Shown here: in pieces, positions 1 through 7,995 of the stretch
How positions within the stretch are numbered: the stretch's first letter is position 1
How the letters are laid out: each line of letters begins with the position of its first letter
IMG/VR virus record: IMGVR_UViG_2740892422_000008
Origin: a virus
Lineage: Duplodnaviria; Heunggongvirae; Uroviricota; Caudoviricetes
Length of the DNA stretch: 7,995 nt
Direction: 5' to 3' (one strand)
The notes under the pieces: generated by a model
What the model was told of the DNA's origin: nothing
Databases searched by the model: none
What the model saw: only the letters and a program-made list of their open reading frames with translations
Made by a program: the position numbers and the translations under genes

Positions 1-1236
1 CTACGATAACCGCGCATTCAACATAGCTACCTGTTCGTCGTTCATGTCATCAATCCACATACCGTAAATTTCATACACCATCTGCGCAGTTTCATGCCCC
101 ATCTGGCTGGCTATAAATGCCGGGTTCGCTCCTGCCGTCAACAGCCAGCAGGCAAAAGTATGTCGCGTATGGTACGGATTACGGCGGCGAATACCAGCAC
201 GTTTTACTGCTGCATTCCATCTCGCACCCAAACTGCTTACCGAGTAATAAGGTTTCTGTTTTCCGTTACACATCCTGGGCATGAAAACAAAATGCAGTTT
301 TTGCTTTTCAGTTCTGCCGTACTCCCGATGATAAAAAGTGATTTCGCTTTTGCGATGATGCCCGGTCAGTTTGTATTGCTCCTTCAGTGCTTCAAGAGCT
401 GGCTGTAGTAGTGTTACCGTCCGGATCCCCGCATTTGTTTTTGGGGGACCGAACATATCAAGTATCGTCAGGTTTCTTCTGACATTCACAATTCCCTTCT
501 CGAAATCCACATCCTCCCACGCCAGAGCTGCCAGTTCCCCGTGACGAAGCCCGGAGTAAACGGCAAATTTCCACAAGTTCTGGCTCTGTCCTTTTTCACT
601 TTCCATTAATGCATTGAATTCTGTTTTAGATAACGGGTCAGGCTTTATTCTGTTTCGCTGTAATTTTTTTACTCCTTCAAATGGTTTGGTTGATATAAAT
701 CCCGACTGATACGCAAAACGTAACAACGAACAGAGCAGGGCGATATAGTTATCAACTGTGCGCACGGTTCTTCCTTTTTTGTTGGTTCTTGGATTATCCA
801 GGTAAAGCGTTTCTCCATGCAGCAGTTCATTCCGGTAGTTTAAGATATCGCTATAACGAATATGCGATATCGGGGTACTCTCACAAATTATTATCCTGAG
901 TGTTTTTAATTGTGATTTCGTTTTCTTCATTGTGTTTGTTGTTAACTCTGTCTCTTTAATTTTTGTCCAGATATCACAAAGCTCCCCGAACGTTTTTATG
1001 ACCCTCGTTGTCACCATTTTTGCCCCAGTGCTGGACTGGGGAAAACGTCTTAAATACTCAAATTCACCGGAATTGATTTCATGAACTATCAACGCTCTTA
1101 AATTCCCGGCTTTTTTAATGTTACTGTTAGTAACCTCCCAGCCTTTCAATGTTTCCCGACATCGTTTTCCTCGAAACATGAACCAGATGCGAATGTATTT
1201 ACCTCGAATCTCGACACCTGTTGGTAATTTAGACAT
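1..1236 (-). CDS. intR: Tyrosine-type site-specific integrase, Rac prophage IntR-like (411 aa, complete; stop codon at 1-3)
   Basis: Full-length minus-strand ORF with ATG at 1234-1236. The translation matches Rac IntR as I recall it (MSKLPTGVEIRG...). C-terminal catalytic signature of tyrosine recombinases is visible (H-x-x-R in NPYHTRHTF, tyrosine in the VYEIYGMW region). Start sits 1 nt from the xis stop, the usual xis-int arrangement. Confidence 0.92.
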   Translation of the reverse strand: MSKLPTGVEIRGKYIRIWFMFRGKRCRETLKGWEVTNSNIKKAGNLRALIVHEINSGEFEYLRRFPQSSTGAKMVTTRVIKTFGELCDIWTKIKETELTTNTMKKTKSQLKTLRIIICESTPISHIRYSDILNYRNELLHGETLYLDNPRTNKKGRTVRTVDNYIALLCSLLRFAYQSGFISTKPFEGVKKLQRNRIKPDPLSKTEFNALMESEKGQSQNLWKFAVYSGLRHGELAALAWEDVDFEKGIVNVRRNLTILDMFGPPKTNAGIRTVTLLQPALEALKEQYKLTGHHRKSEITFYHREYGRTEKQKLHFVFMPRMCNGKQKPYYSVSSLGARWNAAVKRAGIRRRNPYHTRHTFACWLLTAGANPAFIASQMGHETAQMVYEIYGMWIDDMNDEQVAMLNARLS

Positions 1237-1552: not shown

Positions 1553-1753
1553 TCACGACGACTGAAGTTTCTCGCAATTAAAATTTATCAGTTTTACTTT
1601 CTGCTCTCTGGAAATGCCTGCTTCTTTTTTACCTGAGAGCATTTTTTCGCATTCTGATTTGGTTAATTTTGTTTTTGAGTACCTTGTCCAGTTAGTAGGA
1701 GTGCCACCTTCCTTTTCAATAGTGGCGGTAATTTTATACATGAACACCTCCAT
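1553..1753 (-). CDS. ydaC: YdaC-like small prophage protein of unknown function
   Basis: Minus-strand ORF (…MEVFMYKITATIEKEGGTPTNWTRYSKTKLTKSECEK…) resembling Rac YdaC from memory. Start is ambiguous: ATG at 1753 (66 aa), ATG at 1741 (62 aa, preceded by GGAGG at 5 nt spacing), or ATG at 1813 (86 aa, overlaps ralR by 80 nt). The 3' end of ralR overlaps the 5' region. Confidence 0.65.
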   Translation of the reverse strand: MEVFMYKITATIEKEGGTPTNWTRYSKTKLTKSECEKMLSGKKEAGISREQKVKLINFNCEKLQSS

Positions 1754-1991: not shown

Positions 1992-3044
1992 TCAGGAGCC
2001 GATATATTCTGGTTTCATATCTGTCAGTGTCGTTTTATACGCCTCATATAATTCACCCAGATGTGGCCGGGCAGCATTCAGCGTATTTTCCAGAGCAGTA
2101 AATTTTTGTTCTGCTTCTGGATCACCTGAAGAAGGTAGGTCATTTATCATCTTCTCGATACGGGCAATAGCATTGAGACGGTGATGACGCTGAACCACTT
2201 TTCCTTTAAGTTCCGTATAGAGAGCGCCAAGTGTATTTTTATGATCTTCCACTTCCTGGCGAAGTGCTGTTGTTTCCCCGGTGCTTTGTGCCTGCTCAAT
2301 ACGTTCACGGAAAGCATCGATCCAGTTTTCCCCGGCATCCTGCTCAATAATTGTTGTTTCACGTTCCGCGCGGCAAGCGGAAGTGTTTTTATGTTCCTGA
2401 ACCGGATTAATGATTTTTTCCTGTGGCTCGTCCAGTTCGTCCCTGGTGTACACTCCAAGAATCACTTCGGGGCAATAAAGGCGCGCCCAGCGTTTCAGCG
2501 CCAGATAGGCAAGCTGCTGGCGAGGATCGTCGGCCCATAGCGTTGAATTACGTGTTCTGGCCTGCGCCAGAAGTAATTCCAGTACGCGTGGTTTACTTTC
2601 GCCGCGTAGTGTTGCCTGGACACGAACACCGATCCCGTTTTCATCGGCCAGCTTCCAGCCAGGTACACGATATTCTTTCCCTTTGTCGCTCTTCCTGATT
2701 TCAAATTTCCCGATAATTTTTTCCCACGGCCCGAACCAGTCATATTCAATACGCCCGGTTAGCGGCCCACGAGTACTGATTACGGCATTAACCAGTTGCG
2801 CTTCATATCCGAGCACACCATTCACAACGAAAGTTTTCTGAGCTACTGCGTAAGGGTTCATTTGCCACTGCATCGCCTGCATGGTGATGGCCATGCAGTC
2901 TGATGGATTTCCCCGGAGGTGTTCCGGTACAGTAGCCATGCCGGAAGCCATTACCTGGGAAAATGTCTGAATTGCAGCCAGGGACTGAGGGCTGAAAACC
3001 GCAACATTAGAGTTAATATTTTCTTGTTGAGTTAATTCGTTCAT
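1992..3044 (-). CDS. Phage single-strand annealing protein, Bet/Redbeta-like (RecT/Redbeta superfamily), 350 aa, with a ~130-aa helical C-terminal extension
   Basis: ATG at 3042-3044 preceded by GAGGAAGG, 11 nt downstream of the exonuclease stop (translationally coupled pair). Core motifs align by eye to lambda Bet: GNPSDCMAITMQAMQWQMNPY…VNGVLGYE versus GDASDAQFIALLIVANQYGLNPW…VVGVDGW, and KRWARLYCPEVILGVYTRDELDE versus KRMLRHKAMIQCARLAFGFAGIYDKDEAE. It is not the K-12 RecT sequence as I recall it. Confidence 0.72.
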   Translation of the reverse strand: MNELTQQENINSNVAVFSPQSLAAIQTFSQVMASGMATVPEHLRGNPSDCMAITMQAMQWQMNPYAVAQKTFVVNGVLGYEAQLVNAVISTRGPLTGRIEYDWFGPWEKIIGKFEIRKSDKGKEYRVPGWKLADENGIGVRVQATLRGESKPRVLELLLAQARTRNSTLWADDPRQQLAYLALKRWARLYCPEVILGVYTRDELDEPQEKIINPVQEHKNTSACRAERETTIIEQDAGENWIDAFRERIEQAQSTGETTALRQEVEDHKNTLGALYTELKGKVVQRHHRLNAIARIEKMINDLPSSGDPEAEQKFTALENTLNAARPHLGELYEAYKTTLTDMKPEYIGS

Positions 3045-3055
3045 TGTGTCCTTCC

Positions 3056-6000
3056 TCAGATGCTCAGTGCTTCAAGACGACGAAGATCAAAGTCGTTTAA
3101 TTCGTCGGTATAACTTTCGGTAATCGGTGCTGGCCAGTTGTTTGTCTCCAGGGCTTCGTTTATCTGGCGTAGCGTCCGGCGATATTCCTGTCGACCAAGT
3201 TCCAGGAGTTCCTGCGAGGCTTCCACGACTGCCACCCAGTGATAGCCAGCATCTTTGTTGACGAAGATCCAGAAAAATTTGTCCAGATTTGCCACATCGC
3301 AATACATTGCTGCGCTGAGGTGATAATCACGCTCAATAATTTCACGGTGCAGGCGATCTTTCAGTCGTTCCTGTCGCACATAACCGAGGCTGACTGACTT
3401 CACGTCGGCGCAAATGCTTTCGTATGGCAGCCGGATTTCGATATCAGGACGGACCCTGATTTCCAGCCCGGTTTCTTCATCAAACCCGAAATAGCTGATT
3501 TCAGATTTGCGATCCGGGTGGTTGAGTAGCCTTGCTGCATCAGTATTGTTTTGCAGTGCAGCGTGAATATTTTTTGCCTGTTCATACATATCTGAACTGA
3601 TAAACGTTTTCCCGGCGTTTTCTTCTTGCTGGCGTTTTTGCCAGTCCTCCAGGGTAACCAGTTCCGGGCGGATTTTCCGAGCGATTTCGGTTAATTGCTC
3701 TTTCGTGCCACTGATGTTGTAAGGCAAAGATTTAGCACGTTCTTTTTTCGCCAGTTCTGGATCTACAGTTTCAATTTGCTCCAGAAGTTGCTCCCGTGTT
3801 CCACTGGTTTTCAACAGAGGAGGGAGGTTTGCATTGTATTCTCTAATGCAGGCTTTCATTGCCGATGCAGTATGTTTCTCCTCCTCCGGAATACGCCGGA
3901 ATTCCACCGGAAGCGAACCGTAAAGGATGCCTGTTTCTTCGGCTCCAGCACTTACAGACAGTGGCTGTATAAGAGTGCTGTTGTAGCTTTCGATCCACTC
4001 TTTCATCTGCTCTGGTGTCATCAGTGCTGGCAGACTGGCATTGTGTTTTTTAATGATGGCGATCAGTTCGCTAGAAGTAGTAACCACATATTCAGGAACT
4101 GGTACCGGAATGGCATATTCATCAGCGAATTTATCCGTTTCCAGAACATAGCTGTGAATGATCCGCCCACGCAGCAGTGCATCACTTTCCTCGTTCGGAA
4201 TAGTTCCGGCAATGTGCCGTCCGTGGTAATACATCAGGCTGATACGGGCATCCTTCAGCATCGTGCTGCTTATTCCGTTGGCGGAGTGATAAACCTCGTT
4301 CGGGAGGTTTTCATAGCGGCCAGGCTCGAAATATGACGGCCACATGATTTCAGTTGCTACAGGAGCTGACGCTTCACCAGTTTCATCACTGCAATCACGA
4401 TGCGGATCGCTGCCAGCATTCTCATTGTGCGGATGTTCAGCGCCTTCCATTTCCACCGGATCTTTTTCCTTAGCTTCAACCTGATTCTCTTCATCGAATG
4501 TTTCCTGGTATGTTGCGTCGCCCGTCACCGCCCCACAGTCAGGGCAGTTATCTCCGCCAGTCTGACCGCAGGCATTGCAGACTATTTCCGGTTCCTGTTG
4601 CACTACTGGCTCAGGTTGTTTCACATCCGGGCTGGTTTTTTCCGTTTCTGGCTGGTTCTGGTACACAGAATCGCGAGTCTGGATCCCCTTAACCCATTTC
4701 GGATCGTTCGGGTCGCTAATTCCGTCAACAAATTCACCACGTGATGCAGCAAGCAATTTATCGGCATCGACAGGATTTTTTGATGGAATGTTTTTCCGGG
4801 CTTCATGGAGTTCTGCCCGCAGTTCCTGATATTTCGCATCAACAGAATTTACCGGTGACTGAGCATCCAGCGGCTGCGTGTCCTGATGATGTTTAGTTGC
4901 GTCCGGTTCCATTGTTTCAGCCTCTCCCTGTTCATCTGCCGTTGTTCCAGATGGTTGCGGTTTTTCTTCATCATCCTGTTTTCCTTCTTCTGTTACTCGC
5001 TGCGGCATCGGGGCAGAGGAGCGACCGCAGGCAATATCCACGATTTCCGGATCAGGGTTGGCATGATCGGTTTCAGTCAGTACTTTGTTCAGATATTCAG
5101 TGACGTGCGCGGGGGTGACCTCGATCCCAATTGGTGCTTCTTTTACGGACGCAACCACGATGGCGCGGGAATAATCCAGCCCGCCAGGCATGGTGATGAA
5201 TTTGTCGCGGAAAACAGAAAAGGGCGGTTTATTTTCAGCGATAATTTCCTCAATGCGTTTAGCGTGTGCCGGATGAAGGTTATAGATGTCCAGATCCATT
5301 GAACGGGCCAGTACGCCAGTGGCTACGTCGCGCGCCAGTGACGTCAGATCGTGTACGAAACCTTCGCCGCGATCGGTGAGGTTTCCGCCGCCAGCATTAG
5401 CACCGGAAGCCGTGCGAGTGATGTGTGAAACACGATTACCCTTCATCCACTCTTTTGTCAGCAGTCCTCGATCGGTGTAGTCAGCGTTCAGGTATGCTTC
5501 GAAAAAAGCAGTTATCAGTCCCAGGTTTGAATTACCAGGATTAGGGAAAACTTTGTCAGTGTCACGAACCAGTTTGTGGAGTTCGCGAATTTCCAGCGGG
5601 GCGAGCAGGCTGGTTTTGTGGGAAACAGCCAGGGCAGTAACAGCCGGTAGTTCTTCAGCCCGAGCAATGTGTAATGCCTGGAGTCCGTCGCGTGAAACGT
5701 GCGTTACCGGTTTTTCGCTGCCGTGTTGAGCAAGCCAACGAATGGGCAGTTCCTGGCCAGAAATTGGGAGTAGCATATTCTCCTCAATCTCAGTCATGTC
5801 TTCGCCGTTGACGTTGGTATTGCCTTGATAGTGAGCGTTGTCTGGTGCTGCTCCCGGTTTTAGTTCCCATGTCATGGAGTCTTTGCTGAGTTGATAGCGT
5901 TCACTCCAGGTAAAATCGATCTCACCTTCAGCGGGCAGGTCATTAACGACAGGAAAATTCGTGGCAACAGCTTTAAAATAGCTGCTCAGTTTTTTACCTG

Positions 6001-6127
6001 ACTTAACGATCAGGTAGTCCAGAGTGGCACAGGTCGATTCAAAATCGTCACTTGCCCACAGGACGACGTCAGGTTCACCGGATGATTTTTTCGCTTTCCG
6101 TAACAGGAAGAGTGGTTTTGTGCTCAT
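3056..6127 (-). CDS. recE: Exodeoxyribonuclease VIII (RecE-family 5'-3' dsDNA exonuclease), 1023 aa; N-terminal ~585 aa K-12 RecE-like, C-terminal PD-(D/E)XK domain divergent with a repeat insertion
   Basis: ATG at 6125-6127 with GAGGT upstream. N-terminus [26 protein letters not shown]… matches K-12 RecE from memory. The C-terminal domain keeps RecE-type motifs (YH…GIS.S.L.D; IRVRPDIE…ADVK matching the RPD…DVK catalytic core) but is otherwise divergent. Confidence 0.88.
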
Positions 6128-6199
6128 TGTTTTTTAACCTCAACTCAGATTAAAATTCGTTTTGTTCAGTGAATGATCTTGCCGGATACACACTGTTCA

Positions 6200-6222
6200 T
6201 AGCCTGCGCCATACGCAGGCTA
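6200..6222. other. Perfect 9-bp stem / 5-nt loop hairpin in the racC-recE intergenic spacer
   Basis: TAGCCTGCG ccata CGCAGGCTA. Followed on the plus strand by TTTCTTTC, but not by a U-tract on the minus (gene) strand. Confidence 0.3.
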
Positions 6223-6228
6223 TTTCTT

Positions 6229-6578: not shown

Positions 6579-6749
6579 TTAAAGTTCGTGTGCCATCTGG
6601 TCTTTTTCGGCACATATTTCACTACAATATTTTTTCATTTCCGTCGTTGGGATAACTCCACGCATGAAATGAAGTGGTCTTTTAATGCTTTTGCTTTCTT
6701 TAACTTCTTTATCGCAAAGGTGGTAAGCACATTTTATTTTCTTAGTCAT
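6579..6749 (-). CDS. ydaE: YdaE-like small Cys4 zinc-binding protein, 56 aa (absent from the ORF track, below its size cut-off)
   Basis: Manual translation of the minus strand gives [56 protein letters not shown], stop TAA at 6579-6581. Cys pairs C7/C12 and C42/C46. Its ATG (6747-6749) overlaps the kilR stop as ATGA, indicating translational coupling. Position between kilR and racC matches the Rac gene order. Confidence 0.8.
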   Translation of the reverse strand: MTKKIKCAYHLCDKEVKESKSIKRPLHFMRGVIPTTEMKKYCSEICAEKDQMAHEL

Positions 6750-6970
6750 CACCATGACTCCGCCTTTACAGGTAAACCATCACGACCGAGGAAGACTTTA
6801 ATCATGCAGTCAGTAATGCATGTTTTTGTGGTCAGGTTACGAATATAAAGCTTTCGCTTTTTAATATTGTTTGCCGAGGCAATATATGTCCGGCCTTCAT
6901 GAAGAACATAATCGCCAGGAGTCACACACTGACGTGGTATTTCATCAGTTCCGAAGTGATGTGCAATCAT
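6749..6970 (-). CDS. kilR: KilR, Rac prophage cell-division (FtsZ) inhibitor, 73 aa
   Basis: [73 protein letters not shown] matches K-12 KilR from memory. ATG at 6968-6970 is preceded by GGAG at ~7 nt; the track start at 6982 adds 4 aa without a good RBS. Confidence 0.9.
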
Positions 6971-7141
6971 AATTATCTCCATTTTTACAAATGAACTTTG
7001 TTGATGCGGTGCCTGGTGCCTCCAGGTGACTGCAACCAGTTAACAATTACAGTCGGCTTTCCCACCCAAACCAATAAGGACTAACATGACTTTTAACTGT
7101 GCCACGTGCGCTTAGCCGCATTCACCGCATCACAAAACTCA

Positions 7142-7193
7142 CTTTAAAAAGGGCGGACATCAGCCGAACTTCAAGAAAAAAACTGATGCCGCC
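7142..7193 (-). terminator. Candidate intrinsic terminator on the minus strand, upstream of kilR
   Basis: Inverted repeat GGCGG(a)CATCAG (7152-7163) / CTGATGCCGCC (7183-7193): 11 bp with one bulged base and a 19-nt loop. On the minus-strand transcript it is followed directly by CUUUUUAAAGU (plus 7141-7151). No U-tract follows it on the plus strand. Confidence 0.35.
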
Positions 7194-7411
7194 AGGACTA
7201 CACACAGCAATGTCGTTATTTACAACCGGAGGCGCACTCCCACCATTTAAATTTAACAGACAAGACCGACTCTTTATGGATATCGGAAATGCGCCTTCGT
7301 GTTGTGCCCGGTTTTATTTCACCACCTCCGGGCTTCGGTGGTCTCGGCTATACCCCTACAGCGAGAGCTTGTGTTAACATTTCAATACCCTTACAGTTGA
7401 GAGTTATTGAT

Positions 7412-7900
7412 ATGTTGGATATATTTACTCCATTGTTGAAACTTTTTGCTAACGAGCCACTCGAAAGACTTATGTATACGATTATCATTTTTGGTCTCAC
7501 TCTCTGGCTGATACCGAAAGAGTTTACTGTCGCATTCAATGCTTATACTGAAATACCTTGGCTCTTTCAGATTATCGTTTTTGCCTTTTCTTTCGTGGTC
7601 GCCATTTCCTTCTCAAGATTGCGAGCACATATTCAAAAGCATTATTCATTACTACCAGAGCAACGAGTATTGCTTCGTTTATCTGAGAAAGAAATCGCTG
7701 TATTTAAAGATTTCCTTAAAACAGGAAATCTTATTATCACTTCTCCTTGCCGTAACCCGGTTATGAAAAAATTAGAACGGAAGGGCATCATTCAACATCA
7801 GAGTGATAGCGCAAACTGTTCTTATTATCTCGTCACCGAAAAATACTCCCATTTTATGAAGTTATTCTGGAACAGCAGGAGTAGACGTTTTAATCGTTAG
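7412..7900 (+). CDS. sieB: SieB superinfection exclusion protein, 162 aa, two predicted N-terminal transmembrane helices
   Basis: ATG at 7412 (MLDIFTPLLKLFANEPLERLMYTIIIFGLTLWLIPKEF…), stop TAG at 7898-7900. Matches Rac SieB from memory. Hydrophobic segments at about aa 21-36 and 48-67. The track start at 7289 is a non-ATG upstream extension. Confidence 0.88.
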   Translation: MLDIFTPLLKLFANEPLERLMYTIIIFGLTLWLIPKEFTVAFNAYTEIPWLFQIIVFAFSFVVAISFSRLRAHIQKHYSLLPEQRVLLRLSEKEIAVFKDFLKTGNLIITSPCRNPVMKKLERKGIIQHQSDSANCSYYLVTEKYSHFMKLFWNSRSRRFNR

Positions 7901-7902
7901 CT

Positions 7903-7925
7903 GGTGATGCTGCCAACTTACTGAT
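7903..7925 (+). repeat. IS1 left terminal inverted repeat (IRL, ~23 bp)
   Basis: GGTGATGCTGCCAACTTACTGAT, the canonical IS1 IRL. The matching IRR lies outside the window. Confidence 0.85.
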
Positions 7926-7957
7926 TTAGTGTATGATGGTGTTTTTGAGGTGCTCCA

Positions 7958-7995
7958 GTGGCTTCTGTTTCTATCAGCTGTCCCTCCTGTTCAGC
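7958..7995 (+). CDS. insA: IS1 InsA transposition regulator, 5' fragment (GTG start; continues beyond the window)
   Basis: GTG at 7958 followed by codons for ASVSISCPSCS…, the known InsA N-terminus. Only 12 codons are inside the window. Confidence 0.8.
   Translation, partial: MASVSISCPSCS

What the first reader, a model, noticed from the sequence alone, without database searches (positions are those of the whole stretch)
7142..7193. Terminator-like hairpin plus U-tract on the minus strand, upstream of kilR
An 11-bp, GC-clamped stem with one bulge is followed on the minus-strand RNA by CUUUUUAAAGU, about 170 nt upstream of the kilR start. Leftward transcripts from the immunity region would meet it before kilR, ydaE, racC and recE. 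That fits a lambda tL-like barrier keeping the toxic kil gene and the recombination genes silent unless antiterminated. The 19-nt loop is large for a canonical terminator, so efficiency is uncertain.
Basis: seen in the sequence. Interest (0 to 1): 0.4.

Follow-up and report, generated by a model that had tools for sequence, protein, structure and literature searches.

The report
Terminator of the known KilS sRNA
The hairpin is real, but it is the already annotated terminator of KilS, a small Hfq-dependent RNA of the Rac prophage that starts only 98 nt upstream, and not a lambda-style barrier that waits for an antiterminator.

Summary
On the minus strand, 7152-7193 forms an 11-bp stem with one bulged U and a 19-nt loop, followed by C-UUUUU-AAAGU.

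The hairpin and U-tract are the 3' end of KilS (b4833; window 7146-7243, minus strand). KilS is a 98-nt sRNA annotated in MG1655. Bar et al. 2021 described it, with an Hfq-dependent northern signal, a mapped start site and the RIL-seq partner yncL.

The hairpin, the U-tract and the whole ~175-nt kilR leader are homologous to the DicF terminator and dicB leader of prophage Qin. The Rfam DicF score is 39.1 bits, below the threshold of 48. In 113 of 117 related viral loci a hairpin plus U-tract sits at the same place, with varied inner stems and loops.

The published barrier that silences kilR against transcripts from the immunity region is Rho/NusG-dependent (trac, inside racR). I found no N-like gene and no leftward boxA.

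One point was not mentioned in the papers I could read. KilS nt 23-48 match RprA nt 51-75 at 24 of 26 positions. That stretch is the one predicted to pair with csgD, dgcM and yncL.

Novelty of the finding as given: already known.

The parts
7146..7243 (-). KilS sRNA (b4833), 98 nt. The 5' end (start site) is at 7243 and the 3' end is the last U of the U-tract at 7146.
   Evidence: The MG1655 RefSeq annotation lists ncRNA kilS at 1,418,405-1,418,502 (-); this maps to the window with an offset of L003 + 3740. The sequence is 100% identical to K-12. Bar et al. 2021 give coordinates, northern probes, start site and RNase E site.
7152..7193 (-). Terminator hairpin. The 5' arm is 7193-7183, the 19-nt loop 7182-7164, and the 3' arm 7163-7152 with a bulged U at 7157.
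   Evidence: KilS northern probe 1 (GCGGACATCAGCCGAACTTCAAG) equals the plus strand at 7154-7176, so it detects the minus-strand loop and 3' arm. Homologous to the DicF terminator.
7146..7150 (-). U-tract of five U, preceded by C at 7151 and followed by AAAGU.
   Evidence: The tail CCGCCCUUUUUAAAGUGA is identical in DicF of Qin and nearly invariant in 113 of 117 related loci.
7250..7258 (-). Candidate extended -10 element (TGTTAAATT) for the KilS start site at 7243.
   Evidence: Read directly from the sequence. The start site 1,418,502 comes from Thomason et al. as tabulated in Bar 2021 Table S6. The element is conserved in Rac-type loci. Inferred only; it was not listed by the sigma-70 scan, which requires a -35 match.
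7196..7221 (-). RprA-like seed, KilS nt 23-48 (AAAUAACGACAUUGCUGUGUGUAGUC). The reported RNase E site is at 7212 (KilS nt 32), directly 5' of the 16-nt core.
   Evidence: 24 of 26 positions match RprA nt 51-75. There is a weak Rfam RprA hit. This stretch is predicted to pair with yncL, csgD and dgcM. The RNase E site 1,418,471 is.
6971..7145 (-). Conserved structured kilR leader, homologous to the dicF-dicB spacer of Qin. A 21-bp closing helix pairs 7143-7123 with 7011-6990.
   Evidence: Alignment with Qin. Sub-threshold Rfam STnc100 hit at 34.5 bits. RNAalifold on 14 diverse leaders gives 45 pairs, 5 of them with compensatory changes.
6749..6970 (-). kilR, the 73-aa FtsZ inhibitor, which is the gene downstream of the terminator.
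   Evidence: Annotation in K-12.
7412..7900 (+). sieB, divergent from KilS.
   Evidence: Pfam SieB, E = 1.5e-31; annotation.
7903..7995 (.). Left end of an IS1 copy, inserted 2 nt after the sieB stop codon and inside the 3' end of ydaF. K-12 has no IS1 here.
   Evidence: K-12-type matches end at window 7902 and IS1 matches begin at 7902-7903.

Best explanation
The hairpin and U-tract are the Rho-independent terminator of KilS, a 98-nt Hfq-dependent sRNA of the Rac prophage. They probably also serve as its Hfq-binding 3' module.

Shown (by annotation and published data). Transcription starts at a promoter in the sieB-kilR spacer (start site = window 7243). The RNA ends at the last U of the tract (7146). 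The RNA accumulates in stationary phase and is absent in a hfq deletion strain.

Shown here. The element is a paralogue of the DicF terminator of prophage Qin. Homology begins at the 5' arm (UGGCGG), runs through the U-tract, and continues through the whole structured leader to the start codon of the downstream cell-division inhibitor (kilR here, dicB in Qin). The same hairpin-plus-U-tract position is kept in nearly all related prophage loci, while the loop and inner stem vary.

Inferred. Because kilR lies downstream with no other mapped promoter, the terminator also acts as an attenuator. Only polymerases that read through it, whether they started at the KilS promoter or further upstream, enter the kilR leader. 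This gives a discrete sRNA plus a small amount of kilR mRNA, as in the dicF-dicB arrangement. It is one leaky layer beneath the Rho/NusG-dependent silencing that is known to keep kilR off.

Inferred. After RNase E cleavage at nt 32, the processed KilS carries an RprA-like seed at its 5' end and the terminator at its 3' end, and pairs with yncL.
For: - Annotation: kilS b4833 lies exactly over the hairpin, and the sequence is 100% identical to K-12.
- Bar et al. 2021: coordinates 1,418,502 to 1,418,405, northern blot verified, signal absent in the hfq deletion strain, stationary-phase accumulation, own start site, RIL-seq partner yncL. One northern probe covers the loop and 3' arm of this hairpin.
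- Fold: -19.5 kcal/mol, z = -3.3.
- Rfam DicF hit over the full model, 39.1 bits, E = 4e-7, and alignment with Qin dicF through dicB.
- 113 of 117 viral loci anchored on the downstream leader keep a hairpin of -12 to -25 kcal/mol directly before the T-tract. There are 36 sequence variants, including GGUGG/CCACC, ACCAG/CUGGU and GGGUAUC/GAUACCC stems.
- The DicF terminator is reported to produce the 53-nt DicF, while read-through transcripts reach dicB (PMC5069750).
- KilS is present in about 1,455-1,534 of 5,426 complete E. coli genomes, mostly at 99% identity or more.
Against: - The 19-nt loop and a tract of only five U are atypical for an efficient terminator. Its efficiency is unknown.
- The curated Term-seq 3' ends of Adams et al. 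2021 contain nothing at 1,4184xx, kilR or sieB, so the RNA is rare in the conditions they sampled.
- Only one of the two start-site data sets supports the 5' end.
- The formal covariation test on the mixed alignment is weak. The outer 5 bp are almost invariant, only 2 sequences show CG to UA, and the covariation score is reached by 48 of 500 shuffles. The structural support therefore comes from different stems folding at the same place, not from column-wise covariation.
- The attenuator role for kilR is an inference. No kilR promoter or read-through measurement was available to me.
Confidence: 0.85

Rival explanations
1. The hairpin is a lambda tL-like barrier for leftward transcripts from the immunity region. 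It keeps kilR, ydaE, racC and recE silent unless a phage antiterminator modifies RNA polymerase.
For: - Position in the leftward operon: racR, ydaG, ydaF, (sieB), hairpin, kilR.
- The homologous DicF terminator ends part of the dicB-operon transcripts.
- Hairpin plus U-tract, conserved in relatives.
Against: - The demonstrated barrier is Rho-dependent: trac inside racR. Failure there is lethal through kil even though this hairpin is present. Lowering NusG raises kilR mRNA.
- KilS has its own start site 50 nt upstream of the stem.
- There is no N-like protein between racR and the hairpin.
- There is no leftward boxA.
- In this window an IS1 lies between the immunity region and the hairpin.
Confidence: 0.1
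2. The hairpin is an inert fossil: a decayed DicF copy left by recombination among lambdoid prophages, with no present function for the prophage or the host.
For: - The Rfam DicF score is below the gathering threshold (39.1 against 48).
- The ftsZ-pairing part of DicF is not retained.
- The family is highly mosaic.
Against: - An Hfq-dependent RNA of the right size is detected, and it forms chimeras with yncL on Hfq.
- The stem is kept intact in 11 distinct KilS-type variants despite very different loops.
- Sequence identity is 99% or more in about 1,200 genomes.
Confidence: 0.05
3. The palindrome acts on the plus strand, for example as a terminator or operator affecting sieB, rather than on the minus strand.
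For: The plus strand also folds (-17.1 kcal/mol, z = -3.6).
Against: - No U-tract follows the stem on the plus strand (AGGACUACAC).
- sieB starts 220 nt downstream and no plus-strand gene ends here.
- In homologous loci that lack sieB (Qin) the element is kept in the orientation of the downstream inhibitor gene.
Confidence: 0.02

Closest known systems
KilS sRNA of Rac (b4833; Bar, Argaman, Altuvia and Margalit 2021, PMC8175672)
   Same: It is the same element. The coordinates map exactly and the sequence is 100% identical to K-12. The finding covers its terminator hairpin and U-tract.
   Different: Nothing differs in sequence. The paper's main text mentions neither DicF nor RprA, so the family relationships described here are additions.
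DicF sRNA of Qin (Rfam RF00039) and its terminator in the dicB operon
   Same: - The stem base is the same (UGGCGG...CCGCC), as is the tail CUUUUUAAAGUGA.
- The roughly 170-nt structured leader downstream is the same.
- The position is the same, directly upstream of a small cell-division inhibitor gene in the early-left operon. The upstream gene is also related (ydaF and ydfA are both DUF1391).
   Different: - The score is below Rfam's threshold (39.1 against 48 bits).
- The loop and inner stem differ, and the register of the 3' arm is shifted.
- The 3' half of DicF that pairs with ftsZ and pykA, and the 5' part that pairs with xylR, are not conserved.
- KilS has its own start site, whereas DicF is cut out of a long operon transcript.
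- The downstream gene is kilR, not dicB.
RprA sRNA (Rfam RF00034)
   Same: - KilS nt 23-48 match RprA nt 51-75 at 24 of 26 positions. In both RNAs this stretch sits just 5' of the terminator.
- It is the stretch predicted to pair with csgD, dgcM and yncL.
- yncL is a reported partner of both RNAs.
   Different: - There is no overall homology (28.1 bits against a threshold of 70).
- The 5' hairpin and the terminator are different.
- The part of RprA predicted to pair with rpoS (nt 29-52) is absent from KilS.
- RprA is a core-genome gene under Rcs control (Rcs control as stated in the review PMC4152358).
Lambda tL1 with the N/nutL antitermination system
   Same: An intrinsic terminator early in the leftward operon, upstream of a kil gene and the recombination genes.
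   Different: No N homologue and no leftward boxA were found. The silencing of kilR is documented as Rho/NusG-dependent, not as relieved by a phage antiterminator.

Membership tests
Rho-independent (intrinsic) terminator | G+C-rich stem followed directly by a U-tract on the transcribed strand | tested here: met
   11-bp stem with a 5-bp all-G/C base (GGCGG/CCGCC), then C and UUUUU.
Rho-independent (intrinsic) terminator | Compact loop (typically 3-8 nt) | tested here: not met
   The loop is 19 nt as drawn, and the consensus scan did not report the site. The minimum-energy fold adds pairs inside the loop and leaves a tetraloop and a 3-nt internal loop.
Rho-independent (intrinsic) terminator | RNA 3' ends at the U-tract in vivo or in vitro | not testable with these tools
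   Published KilS 3' end is 1,418,405, which is window 7146, the last U. It is absent from the curated Term-seq list of Adams 2021.
Rho-independent (intrinsic) terminator | Stem kept in related sequences | tested here: met
   113 of 117 loci and 36 variants all fold to a hairpin abutting the T-tract. Column-wise covariation is weak.
KilS (b4833) | Same sequence, strand and position between sieB and kilR | tested here: met
   (100% identity to K-12 MG1655).
KilS (b4833) | Hfq-dependent transcript of about 98 nt | not testable with these tools
   Northern blot and RIL-seq in PMC8175672.
DicF (RF00039) | Covariance-model score at or above Rfam's gathering score (48 bits) | tested here: not met
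   39.1 bits, E = 4e-7 to 7e-6, full model positions 1-52.
DicF (RF00039) | Terminator stem base, U-tract and downstream leader, with synteny upstream of a division-inhibitor gene | tested here: met
   Alignment A1 with Qin. Downstream genes across 117 loci are dicB, kilR or a 94-aa ORF.
DicF (RF00039) | 3' half able to pair with the ftsZ ribosome-binding site | tested here: not met
   The loop sequence differs. The best DicF-ftsZ duplex uses DicF nt 32-53 at the ftsZ ribosome-binding site (-22.9). KilS has no equivalent; its best duplex uses its 5' end at another ftsZ site.
Lambda tL1 with N/nut antitermination | N-like antiterminator gene between repressor and terminator | tested here: not met
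   YdaF is DUF1391; YdaG gives a weak UBA-like match; no N family hit.
Lambda tL1 with N/nut antitermination | nut site (boxA/boxB) on the leftward transcript | tested here: not met
   The only boxA-like match in the K-12 region is on the plus strand inside racR, and 3.8 matches are expected by chance. boxB was not searched.
RprA (RF00034) | Covariance-model score at or above the gathering score (70 bits) | tested here: not met
   28.1 bits, E = 0.36.
RprA (RF00034) | The conserved single-stranded stretch AUUGCUGUGUGUAGUC before the terminator | tested here: met
   16 of 16 in the core and 24 of 26 in the extended match.

The most novel reading that the evidence does not exclude
KilS is a mosaic prophage sRNA made of an RprA-type seed joined to a DicF-type terminator and leader module, and it acts as a prophage-borne seed paralogue of RprA. 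After RNase E cleavage at nt 32, the motif AUUGCUGUGUGUAGUC would lie at the 5' end of the processed RNA. It would then pair with the same sites that RprA is predicted to use in csgD, dgcM (ydaM) and yncL. Rac would in this way feed into curli and biofilm control. More widely, seeds and terminators are exchanged as modules in the early-left operons of lambdoid prophages. The same seed occurs with at least three other hairpin types, including a hairpin of about 70 nt, with no Rfam family, found just downstream of a cI-like repressor gene in the one locus examined in detail; loci with this hairpin come from several Enterobacterales genera.
Probability: 0.45. Interest if true: 0.55.

Novelty: already known. 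Interest (0 to 1): 0.25.

Why it matters
As submitted, the finding rediscovers the terminator of an annotated sRNA, so it adds little by itself. It does correct a plausible but wrong picture. kilR is not held back by a lambda-like terminator and antiterminator pair. The layers are Rho/NusG-dependent termination upstream and, probably, a leaky intrinsic terminator that also makes an sRNA.

The by-products are more useful. KilS can be placed in the DicF family of 'terminator plus structured leader' modules that precede prophage cell-division inhibitors. Its seed is that of RprA. This gives concrete, cheap experiments on whether a cryptic prophage taps into the RprA/CsgD biofilm circuit. It also gives a caution for RprA studies in rac+ strains: probes or knock-outs may be confounded by a second RNA with the same seed.

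Tried and rejected
- Consensus terminator scan. It did not list the site because of its loop limit. I replaced it with my own scan plus shuffles. The first version timed out. The second showed that the pattern alone is not rarer than chance.
- Column-wise covariation on 32 hairpin variants. The result was weak, because the DicF-type and KilS-type inner stems are in different registers. I relied on per-variant folds instead.
- Full-length RNAduplex of the sRNAs against targets. It gave meaningless long duplexes no better than shuffles. I replaced it with windowed scans.
- Term-seq evidence. The Adams 2021 supplements have no entry for this locus, and no supplements are held for Dar and Sorek 2018.
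- Original papers not held: Faubladier and Bouche 1994, Conter et al. 1996, Cardinale et al. 2008 and Papenfort et al. 2015. From memory only, the 1994 paper reported dicF-like sequences in Rac. [quoted passage not shown] The cap on papers stopped a look at the 2025 KilR paper.
- Small ORF in the kilR leader. I considered it by eye and rejected it, because the reading frame is broken by an indel in Qin.
- tRNA genes next to the long-hairpin relatives: none were found.
- Genome-wide pattern scan. By my own estimate, about a third of its 36 hits, in unrelated phyla, are what chance predicts for a 19-base pattern in 596 Gb. Only the Enterobacterales hits were used.

Full report
**1. Where the window comes from**

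The window is the left arm of the E. coli Rac prophage. Its content, in order:
- an ORF that runs off the left end of the window (1-1236, minus strand), not examined here;
- the RalA sRNA (Rfam 212.7 bits at 1557-1735, plus strand);
- two long minus-strand ORFs, 1992-3044 and 3056-6127. By order they correspond to recT and recE, which precede racC in K-12, but I did not check them individually;
- racC, ydaE and kilR (6749-6970, minus strand);
- sieB (7412-7900, plus strand);
- the end of an IS1 from 7903 onward.

**2. The observation**

The minus-strand RNA from 7193 to 7141 reads GGCGGCAUCAG, then a 19-nt loop, then CUGAUG-U-CCGCC, then C, UUUUU and AAAGU.
- The 66-nt minus-strand RNA folds at -19.5 kcal/mol, with z = -3.3 and none of 200 shuffles as stable. 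The minimum-energy fold adds pairs inside the big loop.
- The plus strand folds as well but has no U-tract after the stem.
- The tool's own terminator scan did not report the site, because it only allows loops of 3-8 nt.
- In my own scan, loosely defined hairpin-plus-T-tract sites are about as common in dinucleotide shuffles (5.4 +/- 2.1) as in the window (7). This site is the only one on the minus strand, the most stable of the seven (-18.7 against -18.2 for the next), and the only one followed by an unbroken T5 run.

**3. What it is**

The RefSeq annotation of MG1655 carries an ncRNA, kilS (b4833, 'small RNA KilS'), at 1,418,405-1,418,502 on the minus strand between kilR and sieB. This maps to window 7146-7243, and the window is 100% identical to K-12 there. 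The hairpin and its five U are therefore the 3' end of KilS.

KilS was described by Bar et al. 2021 (PMC8175672). What that paper reports:
- It was predicted from RIL-seq (Hfq) data under the name 'sieB.kilR.IGR' and classed as encoded in the kilR 5' UTR.
- It was verified by northern blot, with the signal absent in a hfq deletion strain and accumulating in stationary phase.
- Its size was taken from RNA-seq.
- A start site at 1,418,502 (Thomason et al.) led the authors to say it 'can be transcribed from an independent promoter'.
- An RNase E site lies at 1,418,471.
- yncL is its RIL-seq partner.
- One of the two northern probes equals the plus strand at 7154-7176, so it detects the loop and 3' arm of the hairpin discussed here.

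Upstream of the start site the sequence has TGTTAAATT (7258-7250), a plausible extended -10 element. This is my reading, not a tested promoter.

KilS matches are found in 1,534 of 5,426 complete E. coli genomes, and 1,455 of these cover at least 80% of it. Most are at 99% identity or more, and none of the 12 records listed had an annotated feature under the match.

**4. Family relationship: DicF**

A permissive Rfam scan gives a full-length match to DicF (RF00039) at 7151-7206 on the minus strand. The score is 39.1 bits against a gathering score of 48, with E = 4e-7 to 7e-6. Immediately downstream, at 6997-7135, there is a match to STnc100 (34.5 against 47 bits).

Aligning the Rac spacer with the Qin ydfC-dicF-dicB region shows where the homology lies:
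- It starts at UGGCGG, the 5' arm of the terminator.
- It includes the tail CCGCCCUUUUUAAAGUGA.
- It continues at high identity through the whole leader to the start codon of kilR (Rac) or dicB (Qin).
- The sequences 5' of the hairpin, the loop, and the downstream genes are unrelated.

The gene order is parallel in the two prophages. In Rac it is repressor (racR), small genes (ydaG, ydaF), sRNA, division inhibitor (kilR). In Qin it is dicA, then ydfA, ydfB and ydfC, then DicF, then dicB. YdaF and YdfA are both DUF1391 proteins.

[quoted passage not shown] The 3' half of DicF pairs with ftsZ (PMC5069750). KilS does not keep that part. In windowed duplex scans, DicF nt 32-53 pair with the ftsZ ribosome-binding region (-22.9 kcal/mol), and KilS has no equivalent. 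KilS therefore resembles DicF in its terminator and in how that terminator works, but it fails Rfam's membership threshold and lacks DicF's targeting sequences.

**5.

I scanned IMG/VR for an 18-nt anchor in the conserved leader, about 120 nt downstream of the hairpin, so that the hairpin itself was not selected for. With the K-12 Qin locus and the window itself added, this gave 117 loci with enough upstream sequence.
- 113 of the 117 have a hairpin ending directly at a T-tract followed by AAAG(T/C)GA. There are 36 distinct 70-nt variants, folding at -12 to -25 kcal/mol.
- The stem base GGCGG/CCGCC is nearly invariant. Three 70-nt variants (two in the trimmed alignment A2) have the double change GGUGG/CCACC.
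- The inner stem comes in several versions: AUCAG/CUGAU in KilS-type, a shifted CAGU/ACUG in DicF-type, ACCAG/CUGGU, and GGGUAUC/GAUACCC.
- Loops range from about 8 to 19 nt. Eleven KilS-type stem variants carry quite different loops.

A formal pair count on a joint alignment is unimpressive: 75% of cells are paired, and the covariation score is reached by 48 of 500 shuffles. The reason is that the two main classes pair in different registers. The fair statement is that a terminator hairpin at this position is strongly conserved, the loop is not, and classical column-wise covariation is limited.

The module precedes dicB (78 loci), kilR (21) or an unrelated 94-aa ORF (4). The remaining loci have other or no called ORFs. 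Seeds, stems and downstream genes occur in mixed combinations, for example a KilS 5' part with a DicF-like hairpin in L100 and L122.

**6. The leader**

RNAalifold on 14 diverse leaders predicts a 21-bp closing helix. In the window it pairs 7143-7123 with 7011-6990. It begins three nucleotides after the U-tract and ends about 20 nt before the kilR start codon. It encloses three smaller hairpins. Five of the 45 predicted pairs show compensatory changes. Such a long helix is a plausible RNase III site and would fit the reported 72-nt DicF form. That link is my inference.

**7. Is it the barrier that silences kilR?**

The published evidence points elsewhere.
- Shashni et al. 2014 place a Rho-dependent terminator, trac, inside racR. 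They state that failure of termination there is lethal because of kil, and that trac is strongly NusG-dependent (PMC4150792).
- Barshishat et al. 2018 show that OxyS lowers NusG, that kilR mRNA rises about three-fold, and that toxicity requires kilR (PMC5793797).

When Rho or NusG fails, enough polymerase passes this hairpin to kill the cell, so the hairpin is at most a partial block.

I found no N-type system either. YdaF is DUF1391 and YdaG has only a weak UBA-like match. The one boxA-like octamer in the K-12 region is on the wrong strand and is fewer than chance would give.

In this particular window an IS1 sits 2 nt after the sieB stop codon, inside the end of ydaF, between the immunity region and KilS. 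The KilS promoter is therefore probably the main native source of leftward transcription here. That last step is an inference.

**8. Most likely mechanism**

Polymerase starts at 7243 and mostly stops at the U-tract, giving KilS. The hairpin with its U-tail is the usual Hfq-binding 3' module of such sRNAs (established knowledge, not tested here). A minority of polymerases read through into the structured kilR leader.

- Shown or published: the RNA, its two ends, and its Hfq dependence.
- Shown here: the homology to the DicF module and its conservation.
- Inferred: the attenuator role and the read-through fraction.

**9. An unexpected extra: an RprA seed**

KilS nt 23-48 (AAAUAACGACAUUGCUGUGUGUAGUC) match RprA nt 51-75 at 24 of 26 positions, with a 16-nt exact core. 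Rfam's weak RprA hit comes from this stretch.

Some relatives extend the identity to 20 nt (ATTGCTGTGTGTAGTCTTTG). A 20-nt match between an sRNA of about 100 nt and about 10 kb of known sRNA sequence is expected by chance roughly once in a million trials. This is my own arithmetic.

The reported RNase E site (KilS nt 32) lies just 5' of the core, so a processed KilS would begin with the motif.

Windowed duplex scans gave the following:

| Target site | RprA (kcal/mol) | KilS (kcal/mol) |
|---|---|---|
| csgD 5' UTR, at ACUACACACAGCAGU | -24.6 | -25.6 to -28.4 |
| dgcM, just after the AUG | -17.3 | -16.6 |
| yncL 5' UTR | -16.1 | -17.8 to -21.4 |

- The csgD and dgcM locations agree with the RprA sites described in the review PMC4152358.
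- yncL is listed among RprA targets common to TRIC-seq and RIL-seq (bioRxiv 10.1101/2025.09.11.675593), and it is the KilS partner in RIL-seq.
- Bar et al. do not mention RprA. A phrase search for RprA-like, RprA paralog or homolog and similar-to-RprA returned four papers. Judged by title and abstract only, none concerns a prophage RNA with the RprA seed.

Caveats:
- These are predictions without accessibility terms.
- KilS is rare.
- The second published northern probe overlaps the shared motif, and RprA has a similar size (106 nt). The loop probe is specific.

**10. The same seed elsewhere**

A genome-wide pattern scan for the seed followed by GGCGG found three kinds of hit:
- Rac-type loci, mostly in Escherichia and Shigella. 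Citrobacter braakii has a related locus with the KilS-type 5' part and the GTGAATGCGGC leader motif, but a different loop and no leader anchor.
- Chance hits in unrelated phyla.
- A distinct class in Citrobacter, Rahnella, Mixta, Erwinia, Izhakiella, Scandinavium and one Pseudomonas. Here the seed is followed by a hairpin of about 70 nt and CCGCCCUUUUU. Superficieibacter and Pseudocitrobacter carry the same seed with a shorter hairpin before the same tail.

No Rfam family matched the five loci of this class that I scanned (L130, L131, L134, L144, L150), at E up to 0.01. In the four loci whose ORFs I listed (L144, L150, L157, L164), the same set of ORFs follows the seed-plus-hairpin element. 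Only in L157 (Pseudocitrobacter, the shorter-hairpin form) did I identify, by eye, a cI-like repressor gene directly upstream on the same strand. I did not take this further.

**11. Verdict**

The feature is real and functional, but already known: it is the terminator of KilS. The family placement (the DicF-type terminator and leader module) and the RprA-type seed are the parts that may be new and are testable.

Noticed in passing
window 7196-7221 (-): KilS nt 23-48 match RprA nt 51-75 at 24 of 26 positions, with a 16-nt exact core AUUGCUGUGUGUAGUC. This stretch is predicted to pair with the same csgD, dgcM and yncL sites as RprA, and yncL is a reported partner of both RNAs. The KilS paper does not mention the similarity.
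   Followed up: partly
window 6990-7143 (-): The kilR leader is a conserved structured RNA. A 21-bp closing helix pairs 7143-7123 with 7011-6990 and encloses three hairpins. It is shared with the dicF-dicB spacer of Qin and matches Rfam STnc100 below threshold. It is better conserved than the genes on either side and is a plausible RNase III site.
   Followed up: partly
window 7903-7995: An IS1 end starts 2 nt after the sieB stop codon, inside the 3' end of ydaF. K-12 has no IS1 here. It separates the immunity region from KilS and kilR in this strain.
   Followed up: partly
loci L130, L131, L134, L144, L148-L150, L164, L142 (motif coordinates): The RprA-type seed followed by GGCGG, a hairpin of about 70 nt containing CUUCAACC...GAAGAUAAUGUUCU, and CCGCCCUUUUU occurs in several Enterobacterales genera and one Pseudomonas. 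No Rfam family matched the five loci scanned. The same ORF set follows the element in the loci examined. A cI-like repressor gene directly upstream was seen only in L157, a related locus whose hairpin is shorter and lacks that motif.
   Followed up: partly
loci L100, L122, L053, L014 and others: Seed, terminator stem, leader core and downstream gene (dicB, kilR or a 94-aa ORF with no Pfam match) occur in mixed combinations. This suggests modular exchange by recombination within this short region.
   Followed up: partly
window 1557-1735 (+): RalA, the antitoxin sRNA of the RalR/RalA type I toxin-antitoxin system, with a full-length Rfam match (212.7 bits). Known and expected in Rac.
   Followed up: no
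window 6199-6223 (+): A perfect 10-bp palindrome (ATAGCCTGCG...CGCAGGCTAT) with a T-rich tail on the plus strand, in the gap between the long ORF ending at 6127 and racC, although the flanking genes are on the minus strand.
   Followed up: no
window 7289-7350 (both strands): Overlapping G+C-rich inverted repeats (GCCCGG...CCGGGC and CCACC...GGTGG) between the KilS promoter and sieB, with no U-tract on either strand. Their function is unknown.
   Followed up: no
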